NCBI RefSeq assembly: GCF_009914755.1
Contig: NC_060943.1
DNA length: 64,000 nucleotides
Origin: the human T2T-CHM13v2.0 reference genome, Homo sapiens
Strand: one strand, 5' to 3'
The translations under genes and the position numbers were made by a program. Position 1 is the first letter of the stretch. Each line of letters opens with the position of its first letter. A model generated the notes under the pieces. It searched no databases. It worked only from the letters and a program-made list of their open reading frames with translations, and was not told the DNA's origin. This document shows, in pieces, positions 2,041-57,106 of this stretch.

Positions 2041-2177
2041 CGCCGCCTCTCCGTTTCGCGGATCTCCCGTTCCCGCTGCCTCTGGCGCTCTCTCTCCCTT
2101 TGTTCTTTGATTTTATCAAACGACAAGATGTCTCTCTTTTCTTTGCTTTCTGACTTGCGATCCTGACTCTTGGAGCT
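2041..2177 (-). CDS. SAFB2: SAFB2 exon 14
   Basis: cag|[47 protein letters not shown]|gtgagt. Confidence 0.92.
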
Positions 2178-2662
2178 CTGTTTACCAAAACTGGTTTATT
2201 AATGTCAGGAAAATGATTGCAACAAACAAACAATGGAGATTATGCACGTGTGCATGAGACTAAGATTCTCTGGCCCCACATGGTGTAGATGGAAGGCTGT
2301 GGTCTCCAGACCAGAGGCCCAGGCATAGGCTGCTTCCCTCCAAGTTTGCATTTTACTGCCTAATCCAGAATCCTGCTTTCAGATGTCAAGGGGCATTCAT
2401 GGAAGAGAAGAGGTTGGCCCACGCCTCAGAAAACCTACAGGCACAGTTCTTCTAGCATAGCACAGCCAAGGACTCACATAATCCAAAGCAAACCTAGGCC
2501 TCTCAGAGCCACGGGCACATCCGCACAGGGCCACTGTGGCCATTAGTTCAGAGGGGACAGCAGTCAGGCCAGCTGTTTGGACAGCTGGAGGGCAGACTAC
2601 ATGTTTCACATCTCAACTGCTGGCTCAGGACTCAGGCAGACAGCTCTAAATAGAATATGCCA

Positions 2663-17590: not shown

Positions 17591-18531
17591 AATTTAAGAA
17601 CACAACCATGGTAGGTTGAGAAAAAGAAAAGGAATTGAATCACCCATTAAAAACACACAAAGAGAAACGAAACATTCTTTAGAAGCAAAACTACAATTTC
17701 GTCAGTCTGGCTGGCCAATTGCAGAAAAAAACAGCTTATGTGTGTCATTACATGACCAATGAAAAGGAGATAGCGTCTGGTCTAAAACTGAGAAAAAACA
17801 AACCTCATTTTCTGATCAGCGCCCTCACTGGTTGAGGACTCTTTAGGAGCCGGAGGGACTTCATTACAAGCGTCAAAATCAAACTTCCTCCCGTCTTCTT
17901 TGCTATCTCTGGCTTCTGGGCTTGGGGCTTCCGTGGGTGCTTCTGCGAGCTCCTCGCTAGAGGCCTCCGCGAGCTCGGAGGCCGCACTACTCTGCTCAAC
18001 TGCCGGCTCTAGCCCTACAGGCTCACAGTCCGTCCTCTCGCCATCGCCTGGCTGCTCCGCGGGCTCCCTTTTCACTACCGCTAACAGGCTGTCTGCCTTG
18101 CTCGACTGAGCGTGTGCTGTTGACTCGCTGGCCAAATCTAAATCACCCTCTTCCGGATGGGCGCTGTCAAATAGGTCCTCTTCCTCCGCAAGCTTTCTGT
18201 CTGGCCCCACGCTACTTGTGTCCTGTGCAAATGGCTGCTCCAGCTCGGAACTTTCTTCTTTTACTGGCTCAGATTTACAAGTTTCCCCCAAAATGTCGAG
18301 TATTTTCTCATTTTCTACGGATTTAACAGGAATAGAATGGCACAAGGTTTAATTACCAGGGAAATAAAGCAATCACAAATGTGGAACTGGCACGGCTGCC
18401 ACACTAACACGAAGAGAACTGCTAGCTACACAGAGATTGGAAAACCCGCGGGTACACAAAGTTATACTGGTTACACTACCTGCGCCGCGACCGCCTCTAG
18501 GTAAGCCTCTACGCTACACGGAAGAGAAAAG
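17591..18531 (-). repeat. 941-bp inverted repeat, copy A (SAFB2 intron 6/exon 7/intron 7)
   Basis: Reverse complement of 55456-56396; matched positions always sum to 73987 (no indels); no mismatch seen by eye; first mismatches at 17590/56397 and 18532/55455. Confidence 0.93.
17804..18314 (-). CDS. SAFB2: SAFB2 exon 7 (511 nt, acidic region; identical to SAFB exon 7)
   Basis: tag|AA AAT GAG ([17 protein letters not shown]...GADQKM S) AG|gtttgt; within ORF 17782-18345. Confidence 0.95.
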
Positions 18532-19223
18532 GCCCCCACAGATTTAAACACCTACAACCACGCGGCTGGTTCTCAATAGTCTTCTTCGAGTTTTTGTTCA
18601 AGTCTGGGTCTTCTGACTGATTTTCCAATGTCCAAGGTGCTGAACCGAATGCAATCACCATTCAATGACAGCTCAACTTCCAAATTTCTTTGAATTTCTT
18701 TTAACAGAACAATCCAATATGAAAATCAGAATCTCTTCTGACGGTGGGAGATAAACGCAGTCCGGAAGGGGAATAATATGTTGAAAATTTTCACGGAGAA
18801 ACTCTGTTTCCTCTTCTGGAATCCAGTCACTTCTCAGGTGGTAAGTGCCCTGACAACAGCTTTATCCTGCCTTAACTGCGTTAATCAAAATGACTGCAGC
18901 AAAATATCACAAGATCTGTTTCATGTGTAGAAACACATGGAGGAATCACGGGGACGGGGGAATTAAATGCCACTCTACGTGGTTAGACATGAAAAGAATC
19001 ACTACTACATTGCACCAAATGTATTTGACCTCAAGAAGCCAGAATGGCTCTTCCACAGATCTGGTGATACGAATGGGTTTCCAATCTCTGATCCTTGTAT
19101 GATCTGGATTGTCCACCATTAGAGCAATTTACAAGATCATAACACAGCTTAAAATATAGACAGCTTTAAAATAATAGTGTGAAAACTTTCAAACCATAAC
19201 TGTCGTGTTTCTCTTATCAGTAC

Positions 19224-52083: not shown

Positions 52084-54699
52084 GTAAACTGTTGTATGTC
52101 TCAGTACTTTTAGAATGAAAGGTCAGACCACAATTTCTGGAATCCATTTCAGACACCATATGCCAGTTCCAGCTAATAATCACCACAAGGGTTGTTTCCT
52201 TTGTCAGGATCGTTAATGGGTGTTTGCTTTCTGCTTTCCTCCAAATATAATGTACGCATTGCCAGGGACTTAACTCTAGGCTTCGACGAGTGGCCTCCAA
52301 GCGCTGTGGCTTACCAGCAGTCATTAGAGTCATGTTTTGTGGCATTCTTAATTTCATTGCTTGTGGCAGGGGAAGGCAGCCTGTCTCATCTACCCTGGGT
52401 GGCATCCCCTGCAGAAAGATGATTTGATGAGACAGCAAGAGGGCATGGCTACCTGGGAAAGATGAGTAGGGCCCAGATGGGGATTGAGGGTTGACAGAGC
52501 CCTGTTGGGGAAGGTGGGGTCTCAGGGGTTCTGGTCTTGTCTTTGGGAAGTTTTTTTTGTTTTGTTTTGTTTTGTTTTTGTTTTGTTTTTTCTGAAATTG
52601 CCCAGATTTCATTTAATGACTGTATCATCCTACCTGTTTCATTGGCATCTCTGTAAATATTAAATCTTAGATGAGAACAGATGAGTTGAGAATTTCCAGG
52701 TATGATTTTTATATTTGTGGGTCTTGAGTTTCCTTTTTTTTTCCAGCCTACATAGATACAAATTGTTAGAACACACTTACCTAGGTAGCTGGCTAATTCT
52801 TAGGAGAACTTTTTGTGGAGAAATGAAGATCGAGCCAGCTTTTGCCCAGCCTTTTTATTTATTTATTTTTTTTCCCGTCTTCTTTTTAAATGTCATCTAT
52901 GTTATTGTAATTAGAAATCCCCTTTTGGAAAAGATCTCCATTTGCTTCTGCCATGCAAGGGCAAGGGAGATACTGGAAAGCCAGAGCTCCAACCTTGAGG
53001 AGGGCACAAATCTCAAGAAAACGTGGTGAAACCCAGTTCGCTTTTAGAGCTGCCGTCTCTCCACCTGCAAATTGACACGGCCATTCCCGACTCAGAAAGG
53101 AGAGGAGGAGCCGGATCTTGTCACTTTCCCCTGGCTCTTTCTTGGTCACAGTCTCCCATGTTAAAATGGGAAACCTACAGTCTCTCCTAAACAAATAGGA
53201 ATGTATTTGCTTCTCTTTAGAGAAAATGAGGAAGAATTATTCTGCCAACATTGATGATTTGCTTCAGTCCTATGGTCAGAATTCCCAGCATGGGGTAGGG
53301 TACATGGGGAAAAAACTGATTAAAAATAAGTGAAAGCATGAGGAAAGTGTACAGTTTCATAGAGCATCCTGGAATGGCAGGGCAGTTCCCAGGGGAAGTT
53401 ATAATTCAGTCACACCTACTTATTGGGTATATGTGAATCCCCTGTGATGTGTCAGGTGTGGCATTAACTACCAGCATTACATAGATGAATGAGAAGGAAG
53501 GGTGGTCCCCATGCTCGTGGGGCCTGGCCTGATGGTTAACAGTGCAGACTCACACTCATACACGGCCTTTGCTCAGAGCCTGTCTCTGCTTCCCACCTGC
53601 TGTGTGTCCTTGGGCAAGTTACTCAGTCTGTCTGGTCACAGTCTGTTACTCTGTAAAAAGAAGGGTGCTACCATTAGGACCAACCTCCTGCAACCGATGA
53701 CGAGTCTGTGTGTATGTAAGGTGCTTACATTTGTGCCTGGAACCTAGTCAGTGCCCATCAGTTGACTGGAATTCCAGAGGAGTGTACCTTGTGTGCACAG
53801 GAAACATAAAGGCTGGGGGATCACATCATGTGGAAAAAGCTCCTTTGCTTAGTGGGGCACAGCTGGAGTTGGGTTAGAGGGAAATAGGGAAAGCCTTCCT
53901 GAAAGGAGATGCCACTGAGCTGGATACTGAGGGATGTGGATGACTTGGCTGGACGGGGCAGGGGAGGGCTGGGCCTGTCAGGGAGGGAGGTGGCATAGGG
54001 ATCCATTGGCTGAAGGCTGAAGGCCACAGAGGGACATGAGCTTACTGTGGACACAAGGTGCAGAGAGATGGGATGGGGATAATACAACCAGATGCCACAG
54101 TAGGCAAGGATGGCACCAGCCTGAGTGGACAGGGCTTCCTGGGAAGAGTCTGAATGACTTCTAGAACTGGCCTGGTGGGAACACTGATTGGAAGAGGAGA
54201 TGAAGGAGGGAGGGTATTTACAAAGTTTTTCATGCTGGCACCACCATGCCAAGTAAGAGCAGGAGTCATACCACCTGGGCCCATATTCCCTCAGTCTTTC
54301 GAATATCAGAAAGTTGTCGTAGCTTCATTGAGTGAAAAAGTGACTGTTAATGTGCCATGCATTCCTCTAGATGCTAACAGTAGAAAAATGAAAACACTGC
54401 TCTCCTTGAATTTGAGAGTTCAATCTAGAGGGTCAGGCGTGCTTATGATGAGTGCCTCACCATGAAGTGAGACCAGTTCCAGGCTCCTGCAGGGGAGACT
54501 GAATGGAGGGTGGGCTGAGTGAAGTGGATGCCAGTCTTATGGAGCCATTCCTAGAACAAGCAGGTTCTCCACCTCTTGAGTTTGTGAGTTTCCCTCCCTG
54601 GATTTTTAAAATTCCCTCTTTAGTTATTCTGGGTTTTCATTTAAATAAACTGTAGGTGTCATTCATCTGGCACAGTCTTATTTACGTTTTTTCTTGCAG

Positions 54700-54727
54700 G
54701 AAATTGAAGAGCCATCCCTGGAGCCAG
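54700..54727 (+). CDS. SAFB: SAFB exon 6 (28-nt microexon)
   Basis: cag|EIEEPSLEP G|gtactg. Confidence 0.9.
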
Positions 54728-55455
54728 GTACTGTTAAATGAAAAACTTACCAGCGGGGGTTTGGAACCATTCTAGTTTTCCACCTTCTCTAATTTGAATT
54801 CTTTGATTTTTAAAAGTTACCTTACTATAGTATACATTGTTCTAAAGGTTTACAATCCAAAACCTACCAGGATCATAGAGATTGGAAACCCAGCCATATC
54901 ACCAGATCTGTGAAAGTGGCTCACTTCTCATTTTACAAAATGTATTGGTGAGATGAAAGTATCTCATGCCTTTTTGAATATCAACAGCATTGAATCATAC
55001 ATAGAGAAAGAGTTCCAGATGCCTCTCTTGAGAGCTAATACCTCTGCACCCACAAAACAGATCTTGTGATATTGGGCAGTAGCTTAATTTTGTTGTTTTT
55101 AATTGAGGCAGCTCAGGTAGTGGTAGGGAGATACATTTTAAAACATAAATTTGAGACATAACTGGATTCCAGAAGAGGAAAGAGTGTCTTCATGAGAATT
55201 CCAAACACTGTTCACTTTCTGGACTGCAAATATCTCAGAGCACGGATGGAAGAGATTCTGGTTTTCATGTTGGACTGTTCTGTTAAAAGAAATTCAAAGA
55301 AATTTGGAAATTGAGCTGTTCAGTGAATGGTGATACATTCAGTTAAGCAACTTGGACTTTGGAAGCTAAATTTGGAAGAGTCATATCTAAACGACGACAG
55401 AATGAAGACTGTCAAGAATCAGCCAGAAGGTTTTGGGGGTTAAATCTCTGGGATG

Positions 55456-56396
55456 CTTTTCTCTTCCGTGTAGCGTAGAGGCTTACCTAGAGGCGGTCGC
55501 GGCGCAGGTAGTGTAACCAGTATAACTTTGTGTACCCGCGGGTTTTCCAATCTCTGTGTAGCTAGCAGTTCTCTTCGTGTTAGTGTGGCAGCCGTGCCAG
55601 TTCCACATTTGTGATTGCTTTATTTCCCTGGTAATTAAACCTTGTGCCATTCTATTCCTGTTAAATCCGTAGAAAATGAGAAAATACTCGACATTTTGGG
55701 GGAAACTTGTAAATCTGAGCCAGTAAAAGAAGAAAGTTCCGAGCTGGAGCAGCCATTTGCACAGGACACAAGTAGCGTGGGGCCAGACAGAAAGCTTGCG
55801 GAGGAAGAGGACCTATTTGACAGCGCCCATCCGGAAGAGGGTGATTTAGATTTGGCCAGCGAGTCAACAGCACACGCTCAGTCGAGCAAGGCAGACAGCC
55901 TGTTAGCGGTAGTGAAAAGGGAGCCCGCGGAGCAGCCAGGCGATGGCGAGAGGACGGACTGTGAGCCTGTAGGGCTAGAGCCGGCAGTTGAGCAGAGTAG
56001 TGCGGCCTCCGAGCTCGCGGAGGCCTCTAGCGAGGAGCTCGCAGAAGCACCCACGGAAGCCCCAAGCCCAGAAGCCAGAGATAGCAAAGAAGACGGGAGG
56101 AAGTTTGATTTTGACGCTTGTAATGAAGTCCCTCCGGCTCCTAAAGAGTCCTCAACCAGTGAGGGCGCTGATCAGAAAATGAGGTTTGTTTTTTCTCAGT
56201 TTTAGACCAGACGCTATCTCCTTTTCATTGGTCATGTAATGACACACATAAGCTGTTTTTTTCTGCAATTGGCCAGCCAGACTGACGAAATTGTAGTTTT
56301 GCTTCTAAAGAATGTTTCGTTTCTCTTTGTGTGTTTTTAATGGGTGATTCAATTCCTTTTCTTTTTCTCAACCTACCATGGTTGTGTTCTTAAATT
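55456..56396 (+). repeat. 941-bp inverted repeat, copy B (SAFB intron 6/exon 7/intron 7)
   Basis: See copy A; four ORF-track entries recur identically on opposite strands. Confidence 0.93.
55673..56183 (+). CDS. SAFB: SAFB exon 7 (511 nt; identical to SAFB2 exon 7)
   Basis: tag|AA AAT GAG...ATG AG|gtttgt; ORF 55642-56205 has the same translation as ORF 17782-18345. Confidence 0.95.
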
Positions 56397-56609
56397 CTTC
56401 CTAATTACCTTTAGCCCAGCAGAATTAATTAACTCCTGTGGGTCTGAAATCTTATGGTTAGGTCAGATTTTCAATACAAGTTTGTCGGGGTATCATTTTT
56501 TCAGAACTAAATTTCGGGTAGGTATGCAACCTCAGCACGAATTTTATGGTTTTGAGTTTGTTTCCTCCATGCTGCTTCCTTGTGGAGTGACATTGTCTTT
56601 TGTCTCTAG

Positions 56610-56659
56610 TTCTCCCGAAGATGACTCGGATACAAAAAGGCTTTCCAAAGAGGAAAAGG
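56610..56659 (+). CDS. SAFB: SAFB exon 8
   Basis: tag|T TCT CCC.. SPEDDSDTKRLSKEEK G|gtaggt; 50 nt. Confidence 0.92.
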
Positions 56660-57106
56660 GTAGGTCACCTCGGCGACACCAGTCCCTTGGAGCATGTATG
56701 GCCTGGGCAGTGGCGGGTATTTGATTCTGGTTCATCGCGTGCTATGCTCCTTACCCAGGAGACTCCTGAGACGTTTGTGCAGTCTTTCTCCTTCTCTGCT
56801 GTTACCGCTACAGGTTCTGGGTTGTAGGAAGCATACCAGGTCCTAAGAGTTAACAGGCTGATTTGGTGCAGATCCTTGTGTTGGGAGCACATTCATCCTG
56901 TAACCCTTCATTAAATGCATTAACTGAGAAATAATTTTACCCTACCAAATTCCTTCTTAATCAGTGTTCTAAAGGAGTAAAAACATGGGATAGATACAGA
57001 GCTATACGTGGAAAGAGAAACAGTGCATTGTTGACACCAAGGTTGACTGTTCTGCTACATGGCCGTTGCACACTGCACTTCCTCCTGTAATTAAGCGATC
57101 GCTAAC

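What the first reader, a model, noticed from the sequence alone, without database searches (positions are those of the whole stretch)
54874..55558. Long-range RNA stem conserved in both paralogues that loops out most of intron 6
Seen: SAFB CAUAGAGAUUGGAAA-CCC (54874-54891) is complementary to GGGUUUUCCAAUCUCUGUG (55540-55558): 15 contiguous pairs with one U-G, a 1-nt bulge, then 3 G-C. SAFB2 keeps the same pairing (19075-19090 with 18431-18447), with C-G where SAFB has U-G. The 5' arm lies outside the identical tract, as a conserved island in otherwise diverged intron. A weaker outer extension is also possible: AUUGUU (SAFB 54836-54841) or AAUUGCU (SAFB2) with AGCAGUU at 55564-55570. Inference: the stem encloses ~650 nt that include the candidate poison exon, and its 3' arm starts 32 nt after that exon's donor. 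This is the geometry of structure-driven exon loop-out.
Basis: partly seen in the sequence, partly recalled or inferred. Interest (0 to 1): 0.9.

Follow-up and report, generated by a model that had tools for sequence, protein, structure and literature searches.

The report
Conserved long-range stems in SAFB intron 6
Two nested RNA stems are kept in intron 6 of both SAFB and SAFB2 and enclose a possible stop-codon ("poison") exon, which looks like a known kind of splicing switch but remains unproven without data from other species or from RNA experiments.

Summary
The pairing is real. SAFB 54874-54891 pairs with 55540-55558 (15 contiguous pairs with one U-G, a 1-nt bulge, 3 G-C; -29.8 kcal/mol). 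SAFB2 19090-19075 pairs with 18447-18431 (13 pairs, bulge, 3 G-C; -25.8 kcal/mol).

Three points change the picture:
- The 3' arm lies in a 941-bp tract (55456-56396) that is 100% identical between the genes, almost certainly recent gene conversion. Its conservation is therefore not independent evidence; only the 5' arm is informative.
- A second conserved stem (54896-54911 with 55057-55072) sits 4 nt inside the first. Both of its arms are identical islands in diverged intron.
- The enclosed loop holds a conserved cluster of GAAGA/AAGAA motifs, the published SAFB1 binding motif, just upstream of the candidate exon.

Two paralogue-conserved helices of this size arose in 1 of 1000 conservation-preserving shuffles. 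There is no compensatory covariation. The SAFB2 stem is lost when 1.6 kb is folded. The candidate exon (55474-55507) gives a stop at codon 214 but is absent from RefSeq and from the papers searched.

The parts
54874..54891 (+). SAFB stem A, 5' arm. The core 54877-54892 is a 16-nt run identical to SAFB2.
55540..55558 (+). SAFB stem A, 3' arm. It lies inside the 941-bp identical tract, 32 nt after the candidate exon's donor and 114 nt before exon 7.
54896..54911 (+). SAFB stem B, 5' arm. It starts 4 nt after the stem A 5' arm and lies in the identical run 54897-54912.
55057..55072 (+). SAFB stem B, 3' arm, in the identical run 55055-55073. The stem has 7+8 pairs around one C/U mismatch and encloses a 145-nt loop that cannot be aligned between the genes.
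55161..55473 (+). Conserved purine-motif cluster in the loop. It holds all 7 GAAGA/AAGAA motifs of the intron, mostly at positions conserved in SAFB2, and about 72% of its bases are identical to SAFB2.
   Evidence: motif from PMC4689037
55474..55507 (+). Candidate 34-nt poison exon. It has a pyrimidine-rich acceptor and a GTAGTG donor, and gives Ala-stop at codon 214. It is not annotated in RefSeq.
55456..56396 (+). 941-bp tract 100% identical to SAFB2 17591-18531 (gene conversion). It covers the last 217 nt of intron 6, all of exon 7 and 213 nt of intron 7.
19075..19090 (-). SAFB2 stem A, 5' arm
18431..18447 (-). SAFB2 stem A, 3' arm (inside the identical tract)
19055..19070 (-). SAFB2 stem B, 5' arm. 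G19070 makes a G-U pair where SAFB has A-U.
18904..18919 (-). SAFB2 stem B, 3' arm
18480..18513 (-). SAFB2 copy of the candidate poison exon. It is identical to the SAFB copy and gives a stop at codon 213.

Best explanation
Intron 6 of SAFB, and likewise of SAFB2, carries two nested pairs of conserved complementary regions that act in the pre-mRNA.

Stem A (about 18 pairs) ties a site 146 nt downstream of the 28-nt exon 6 to a site 114 nt upstream of exon 7. Stem B (15 pairs) begins 4 nt inside stem A and pinches off 145 nt of unconstrained sequence.

With both stems formed, the exon 6 donor and the exon 7 acceptor are about 260 nt apart instead of 945 nt. A regulatory module is then held in a closed loop. 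It consists of a cluster of purine motifs of the type SAFB binds, followed by a 34-nt exon carrying a stop codon.

Inferred mechanism: the closed form favours productive exon 6-7 splicing and skipping of the stop-codon exon. Opening of stem A, or SAFB-family protein bound to the purine cluster, allows the exon to be included. The transcript would then carry a premature stop and be degraded, giving feedback on SAFB and SAFB2 levels.

Shown here: the complementarity, its paralogue conservation, its thermodynamic dominance, the stop codon and the motif cluster. Inferred: pairing in vivo, use of the exon, and the direction of the effect.
For: - Stems A and B are the two strongest duplexes in the intron: -29.8/-25.8 and -21.7/-20.3 kcal/mol.
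- Both stems are in the minimum-energy fold of the whole intron in both genes, with pair probabilities 0.8-0.98, and in the two-sequence consensus fold.
- Shuffles: 0/400 for SAFB and 6/400 for SAFB2. For both conserved helices together, with the conservation pattern preserved, 1/1000.
- The three arms outside the conversion tract coincide with three of the six identical runs of at least 12 nt in the intron.
- Paired positions are 46 identical to 1 different, against 49 to 55 in the flanking 25 nt. The 4-nt linker between the two 5' arms has 3 substitutions.
- The only variation within the stems is a G-U for A-U change in stem B and the SAFB indel that lengthens stem A through a U-G pair. Both keep pairing only on the transcribed strand.
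- Across the whole window, the only syntenic matches between the genes that are neither exon nor Alu are 54836-54916 and 55161-56399.
- Including the candidate exon gives a stop at codon 214 (SAFB) and 213 (SAFB2).
- GAAGA/AAGAA density is 2.24 per 100 nt in 55161-55473 against 0.30 in other SAFB introns. This is the SAFB1 iCLIP motif, which has been linked to exon inclusion (PMC4689037).
- Energy, length and spread fall within the range of validated long-range structures (PMC8052449).
- In BRD2 and BRD3, disrupting such stems raises poison-exon inclusion and compensatory mutants restore it (PMC10789245).
Against: - No pair in stem A or B shows a compensatory double change, so the pairing itself has no covariation support.
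- The 3' arm and the candidate exon are identical between the genes through gene conversion, so they carry no comparative information.
- In a 1.6-kb context the SAFB2 stem A has pair probability about 0. Its 3' arm pairs with exon 7 and its 5' arm forms a local hairpin, and forcing stem A costs 8 kcal/mol.
- Competing partners exist for both arms, at -22.0 and -24.5 kcal/mol.
- The candidate exon is not in RefSeq, and nothing on a SAFB poison exon or RNA structure was found in nine literature searches and several supplements.
- Catalogues of conserved complementary regions are large (916,360 pairs) and only a small fraction have covariation support. Exon loop-outs are depleted among them overall (PMC8052449).
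- The third family member, SLTM, has no stem A counterpart.
- The Fisher contrast is partly circular, because pairing with an invariant partner requires conservation.
Confidence: 0.45

Rival explanations
1. The stems are real, selected RNA structure, but they serve constitutive splicing rather than a poison exon. They compact the 945-nt intron and bring the weak donor of the 28-nt exon 6 close to the exon 7 acceptor. The stop-codon segment is never used.
For: - Exon 6 is only 28 nt and its donor is weak (GTACTG) in both genes.
- Intron 6 keeps its length between the genes (945 vs 909 nt) while other introns differ several-fold.
- The candidate exon is not annotated and was not found in the literature.
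- SLTM has a strong hairpin at the position of stem B but no stem A.
Against: It leaves unexplained the conserved purine-motif cluster directly upstream of a well-formed acceptor, pyrimidine tract and donor.
Confidence: 0.2
2. The conserved islands are protein-binding or other splicing-regulatory elements, and their complementarity is incidental or secondary.
For: - The 5' island (54836-54916) is wider than the two arms and includes conserved unpaired stretches.
- Stem B contains the palindromic core AGATCT, so two copies of one motif would pair in part.
- There is no covariation.
Against: - Complementarity extends well beyond the palindrome (7+8 pairs).
- Stem A has no palindromic core.
- Two such conserved helices arose in 1/1000 shuffles.
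- The linker and loops diverge while the arms do not.
Confidence: 0.15
3. The arms are relics of terminal inverted repeats of one or two ancient DNA transposons, or chance inverted repeats, with no present function.
For: - The nested arrangement (one inverted-repeat pair inside another) resembles nested insertions.
- Each helix alone is only modestly significant (12/400 and 6/400 for Watson-Crick runs).
Against: - The intron has no other copy in the genome.
- The 3' arm with up to 2 mismatches has 82 genome hits against 55 for a reversed control.
- No target-site duplications are visible.
- There is no Rfam hit.
- Neutral relics would have decayed like the loops, which are about 42% identical. 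A repeat-consensus library was not available.
Confidence: 0.1
4. The 5' island is itself an unannotated cassette exon (about 54871-54909, flanked by AG and GT in both genes). It would be conserved as an exon, not as stem arms.
For: AG precedes 54871 and GT follows 54909 in both genes. In SAFB it would give an early stop.
Against: - The upstream tract is A-rich, with a poor pyrimidine tract.
- It is not annotated.
- This reading does not explain the matching conserved 3' arm of stem B at 55057-55072.
Confidence: 0.05

Closest known systems
BRD2 exon 3b and BRD3 exon 5b: conserved complementary regions that control poison-exon inclusion (PMC10789245)
   Same: In both cases, intronic complementary arms in paralogous genes flank a short stop-codon exon inside one annotated intron. 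The published direction of effect is that the stem suppresses inclusion.
   Different: BRD2 and BRD3 acquired their structures independently, at non-homologous sites, and were validated with antisense oligonucleotides and compensatory minigenes. Here the structure is homologous in the two genes, half of it is homogenised by gene conversion, a second nested stem is present, and nothing has been validated.
Catalogue of pairs of conserved complementary regions in human genes (PrePH; PMC8052449)
   Same: Arms of at least 10 nt, energy of -15 kcal/mol or lower, less than 10 kb apart, intronic. Stem A would fall in energy group III (-25 to -30 kcal/mol) and stem B in group II.
   Different: The catalogue track itself could not be read, so I do not know whether these pairs are already listed. 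Vertebrate conservation of the arms was not testable here.
ATE1 competing long-range structures (PMC7797038)
   Same: Several conserved intronic elements have alternative pairings. Here the 5' arm has a local hairpin and, in SAFB only, a -24.5 kcal/mol partner at the candidate exon's acceptor. The 3' arm can also pair with exon 7.
   Different: ATE1 controls mutually exclusive exons and has been proven by mutagenesis. The competitors here are only predicted and are not all conserved between the genes.
Autoregulatory poison exons of RNA-binding proteins (SR proteins, TRA2B; e.g. PMC11791180)
   Same: An RNA-binding protein gene has a short stop-codon exon preceded by a cluster of the protein's own binding motif.
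   Different: Those exons are ultraconserved and documented. For SAFB and SAFB2, neither use of the exon nor self-binding has been shown.

Membership tests
Pair of conserved complementary regions (PrePH definition, PMC8052449) | Complementary stretches of at least 10 nt, helix of at least 5, hybridisation energy of -15 kcal/mol or lower | tested here: met
   Stem A is -29.8 (SAFB) and -25.8 (SAFB2) kcal/mol. Stem B is -21.7 and -20.3 kcal/mol.
Pair of conserved complementary regions (PrePH definition, PMC8052449) | Both arms intronic, in one gene, no more than 10 kb apart | tested here: met
   The arms are 648 nt (A) and 145 nt (B) apart, within intron 6.
Pair of conserved complementary regions (PrePH definition, PMC8052449) | Both arms lie in intronic regions conserved across vertebrates | not testable with these tools
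   No other vertebrate genome was available. As a proxy, three arms are identical runs between paralogues that were already separate genes before the human-mouse split. The fourth arm lies in a conversion tract and is uninformative.
Pair of conserved complementary regions (PrePH definition, PMC8052449) | Compensatory substitutions (supporting evidence, not required) | tested here: not met
   No pair has both sides changed in stem A or B between the two genes. There is one G-U for A-U change. Two sequences give very little power.
Structure-driven loop-out of a poison exon (BRD2/BRD3 type) | The arms flank the exon on both sides | tested here: met
   The 5' arm is 582 nt upstream of the candidate exon's acceptor and the 3' arm is 32 nt downstream of its donor.
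Structure-driven loop-out of a poison exon (BRD2/BRD3 type) | Inclusion of the exon introduces a premature stop well upstream of the last exon junction | tested here: met
   Stop at codon 214 (SAFB) and codon 213 (SAFB2). At least seven coding exons follow.
Structure-driven loop-out of a poison exon (BRD2/BRD3 type) | The exon is actually spliced in, and its transcripts are sensitive to nonsense-mediated decay | not testable with these tools
   Reads are off for this job. The exon is not in the RefSeq list supplied and was not found in the papers or supplements searched.
Structure-driven loop-out of a poison exon (BRD2/BRD3 type) | Disrupting either arm changes inclusion and the compensatory double mutant restores it | not testable with these tools
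   This is a bench experiment.
Terminal inverted repeats of a DNA transposon | Multiple related copies in the genome | tested here: not met
   The only genome matches to the intron are SAFB and SAFB2. The arm pattern gives 82 hits against 55 for the control.
Terminal inverted repeats of a DNA transposon | Target-site duplication flanking the arms | tested here: not met
   No direct repeat flanks either stem in either gene (reading). In an ancient element it could have decayed.
Any Rfam family | Covariance-model match | tested here: not met
   No match at E up to 1 in 54000-57000 on either strand.

The most novel reading that the evidence does not exclude
SAFB and SAFB2 share one auto- and cross-regulatory splicing cassette: nested stems, a cluster of SAFB-binding motifs and a poison exon. 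Its 3' half (poison exon, 3' arm, exon 7) is kept letter-identical by ongoing gene conversion. The unconverted 5' arms of both genes must therefore stay matched to a single shared 3' arm. That would be concerted evolution of an RNA switch, letting the two paralogues sense their combined dosage.
Probability: 0.2. Interest if true: 0.7.

Novelty: new member of a known kind. Interest (0 to 1): 0.5.

Why it matters
SAFB and SAFB2 are abundant nuclear RNA- and chromatin-binding proteins, and I found no description of how their levels are set. If this reading is right, there would be a handle for altering both genes at once, because the 16-nt core of the 5' arm is identical in the two and could be targeted by one antisense oligonucleotide. 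It would add a homologous-paralogue case to the few validated poison-exon loop-outs. It would also be an example of gene conversion acting on one half of an RNA duplex. If wrong, it joins the large pool of unvalidated conserved complementary pairs.

Tried and rejected
- Rfam scan of 54000-57000: no match.
- Genome-wide search for further copies of the intron and of the arm: none beyond chance. This argues against a repeat family.
- SLTM as a third sequence for covariation. Its exon 6 and 7 equivalents were located, but intron 6 cannot be aligned with SAFB apart from a 28-nt element before exon 7. The three-way consensus fold was meaningless, and no stem A counterpart exists.
- Long-sequence duplexfold between the upstream and downstream intron parts was uninformative. 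It sums many small helices, and shuffles score as well.
- A 2.7-kb partition-function fold timed out. It was replaced by 1.6-kb folds.
The separate DNA search was run on its own.
- Literature: nine searches and supplement look-ups found nothing on a SAFB or SAFB2 poison exon, conserved complementary pair, or gene conversion at exon 7.

Full report
**Observation**

Reading both strands confirms the reported pairing. In SAFB, 54874-54891 pairs with 55540-55558: 15 contiguous pairs including one U-G, a bulged U, then three C-G pairs. In SAFB2, read on the minus strand, 19090-19075 pairs with 18447-18431: 13 Watson-Crick pairs, the same bulge and three C-G pairs.

The repeat finder ranks this as the top inverted repeat in each intron. 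The 5' arm starts 146 nt after the exon 6 donor. The arms are 648 nt apart. The 3' arm starts 32 nt after the donor of the candidate exon 55474-55507 and ends 114 nt before exon 7.

**What the paralogue comparison really says**

An alignment of the two regions shows a 941-bp tract, 55456-56396, that is 100% identical to SAFB2 18531-17591. It covers the last 217 nt of intron 6, all 511 nt of exon 7 and 213 nt of intron 7.

Every other coding exon pair is only 54-78% identical. Exon 7 encodes a low-complexity acidic segment with no detectable counterpart in SLTM. Purifying selection cannot explain identity at every site, so recent or ongoing gene conversion is the sensible reading.

The 3' arm and the candidate exon lie inside this tract. 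Their identity in the two genes is therefore not independent evidence of constraint. The informative part is the 5' arm, whose core 54877-54892 is a 16-nt identical run in sequence that is otherwise 42-76% identical per 50-nt window.

**A second, nested stem**

The repeat finder also reports 54896-54911 paired with 55057-55072, and the homologous SAFB2 pair 19070-19055 with 18919-18904. This stem has 7+8 pairs around one C/U mismatch. Both arms are identical runs (54897-54912 and 55055-55073), while the 145-nt loop between them cannot be aligned (about 42% identity).

This stem B starts 4 nt after the 5' arm of stem A, and 3 of those 4 linker positions differ between the genes. Three of the six identical runs of at least 12 nt in the intron are thus stem arms.

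A window-wide comparison finds only two syntenic matches between the genes that are neither exon nor Alu: 54836-54916, which holds both 5' arms, and 55161-56399.

**Is it more than chance?**

- In 400 dinucleotide shuffles of each intron, none reached 15 pairs with at most one G-U for SAFB. Twelve reached its 12-pair Watson-Crick run. Six reached the 13-pair run of SAFB2.
- A stricter null shuffled alignment columns within conservation classes, so that conserved blocks stay in place. A best conserved Watson-Crick helix score of 12 or more occurred in 14 of 1000 shuffles. Two such helices occurred in 1 of 1000. This test ignores the three extra G-C pairs of stem A.
- Paired positions outside the conversion tract are 46 identical to 1 different, against 49 to 55 in the flanking 25 nt. 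This contrast is partly circular, because pairing with an unchanged partner demands conservation.

**Folding**

- Stems A and B are the two most stable duplexes any 20-nt window of the intron can form: -29.8/-25.8 and -21.7/-20.3 kcal/mol.
- Both stems are in the minimum-energy structure of the full intron in both genes, with mean pair probabilities of 0.88-0.90 (A) and 0.80-0.98 (B).
- Both stems are in the RNAalifold consensus.
- In a 1.6-kb context, SAFB keeps stem A (0.88) but SAFB2 loses it. Its 3' arm pairs with exon 7 (18187-18205) and its 5' arm folds into a local hairpin. Forcing stem A costs 8 kcal/mol.
- Competitors exist in both genes. The 5' arm can form a local hairpin (-9.5/-12.0 kcal/mol). 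The 3' arm can pair with exon 7 (-22.0). In SAFB only, the 5' arm can pair with 55428-55462 at the candidate exon's acceptor (-24.5, against -15.8 in SAFB2).

**Covariation**

There is none. No pair in either stem has changed on both sides. Stems A and B differ between the genes in only two ways:

- In stem B, A54896-U becomes G-U in SAFB2.
- A 2-nt indel at the outer end of stem A happens to add an A-U and a U-G pair in SAFB.

Both keep pairing only on the transcribed strand. That mildly favours selection at the RNA level over the DNA level.

**What is in the loop**

Including 55474-55507 after exon 6 (phase 1) reads Ala then stop, at codon 214 in SAFB and 213 in SAFB2. The segment is 34 nt long and has a pyrimidine-rich acceptor and a moderate GTAGTG donor.

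All seven GAAGA/AAGAA pentamers of SAFB intron 6 lie in the 313 nt just upstream (55161-55473). That is 2.24 per 100 nt, against 0.30 per 100 nt in the other SAFB introns. Eight of the nine in SAFB2 lie in the homologous stretch, mostly at matching positions.

These pentamers are the top SAFB1 iCLIP motifs, and purine trimers were linked to exon inclusion (PMC4689037). In mouse cells SAFB binds introns through purine-rich motifs, and Safb and Safb2 are also divergently arranged there (PMC10578485). The duplication therefore predates the human-mouse split.

**Mechanism proposed**

This is inferred, not shown.

1. Stems A and B compact the intron from 945 nt to about 260 nt between the exon 6 donor and the exon 7 acceptor. 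They hold the purine cluster and the stop-codon exon in a closed loop. This favours productive splicing.
2. Opening of stem A, or SAFB-family protein bound to the cluster, permits inclusion of the exon.
3. Inclusion introduces a premature stop and leads to transcript decay.

This matches BRD2 and BRD3, where blocking or mutating such stems raises poison-exon inclusion and compensatory mutants restore it (PMC10789245). The energy, arm length and spread are within the range of validated long-range structures, and stem A would fall in energy group III of the published catalogue (PMC8052449).

**Rivals**

- The stems aid constitutive splicing of the 28-nt exon 6, which has a weak donor, and the stop-codon segment is unused.
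- The islands are protein-binding elements and the complementarity is incidental.
- The arms are relics of transposon inverted repeats. Against this, the genome holds no other copies, no target-site duplications are visible, and neutral relics would have decayed like the loops.
- The 5' island is itself an unannotated exon. Against this, its acceptor is poor.

**What could not be done**

- No other vertebrate genome, sequencing reads or proximity-ligation data were available.
- SLTM was located but its intron 6 cannot be aligned with SAFB, so it gave no covariation.
That step was dropped.
- Nine literature searches and several supplement look-ups found no description of a SAFB or SAFB2 poison exon, of this structure, or of the conversion tract. 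The full catalogue of conserved complementary regions is a browser track and could not be read, so the pair may already be listed there.

**Verdict**

This is a well-formed candidate of a known mechanism, not a new kind of thing. Its distinctive feature is that one half of the duplex is homogenised by gene conversion while the other half is held by selection in two genes.

Noticed in passing
window 55456-56396 (+) and 17591-18531 (-): A 941-bp tract is 100% identical between SAFB and SAFB2, spanning exon 7 and parts of both flanking introns. All other coding exons are 54-78% identical. This looks like very recent or ongoing gene conversion between head-to-head paralogues. Zero differences in 941 bp suggests the last few million years, assuming a typical primate substitution rate.
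   Followed up: partly
window 55161-55473 (+); SAFB2 18514-18827 (-): A cluster of GAAGA/AAGAA pentamers (the SAFB1 iCLIP motif) lies just upstream of the candidate poison exon. It is about 7-fold denser than in other SAFB introns and mostly positionally conserved in SAFB2. It is a possible autoregulatory binding platform.
   Followed up: partly
window 55642-55668 (+); L014 2006-2033 (-) = chr15:56702006-56702033: A 27-28-nt element just upstream of the exon 7 acceptor is about 89% identical between SAFB/SAFB2 and the distant family member SLTM. It is the only clearly alignable intronic stretch between them, which suggests an ancient regulated acceptor or branch region.
   Followed up: partly
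L014 3095-3117 and 2982-3004 (minus strand; SLTM intron 6): SLTM has a single-copy 23-position hairpin stem (22 pairs, 3 of them G-U; -31.3 kcal/mol; pair probability above 0.95) with a 90-nt loop. It sits 204-340 nt after the donor of its 28-nt exon 6, nearly the same place as stem B in SAFB (168-345 nt). No sequence homology could be shown.
   Followed up: partly
L014 about 2172-2206 (minus strand; SLTM intron 6): A roughly 35-nt segment with a good acceptor and a GTAAAG donor, containing stop codons, lies about 171 nt upstream of SLTM exon 7. The SAFB candidate exon lies 165 nt upstream of its exon 7. This is a possible analogous poison exon. Its reading frame and use were not checked.
   Followed up: no
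window 55439-55446 and 55660-55667 (+): The 8-mer GTTAAATC occurs upstream of both acceptors in the intron: 27 nt before the AG of the candidate exon's acceptor and 3 nt before the AG of exon 7's. The second copy is also kept in SLTM. Its function is unknown.
   Followed up: no
window 54868-54872 with 55656-55660 (+): A 5-pair helix (CAGGA with TCCTG) is predicted outside stem A at pair probability 0.44. It would tie the conserved GGATC just before the 5' arm to the pyrimidine tract of the exon 7 acceptor. Only 4 pairs are possible in SAFB2. It is probably chance.
   Followed up: no
window introns 6 and 7 of both genes: Intron 6 (945 vs 909 nt) and intron 7 (426 vs 431 nt) keep their lengths between the paralogues, whereas most of the longer introns differ 1.3- to 7-fold.
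   Followed up: no
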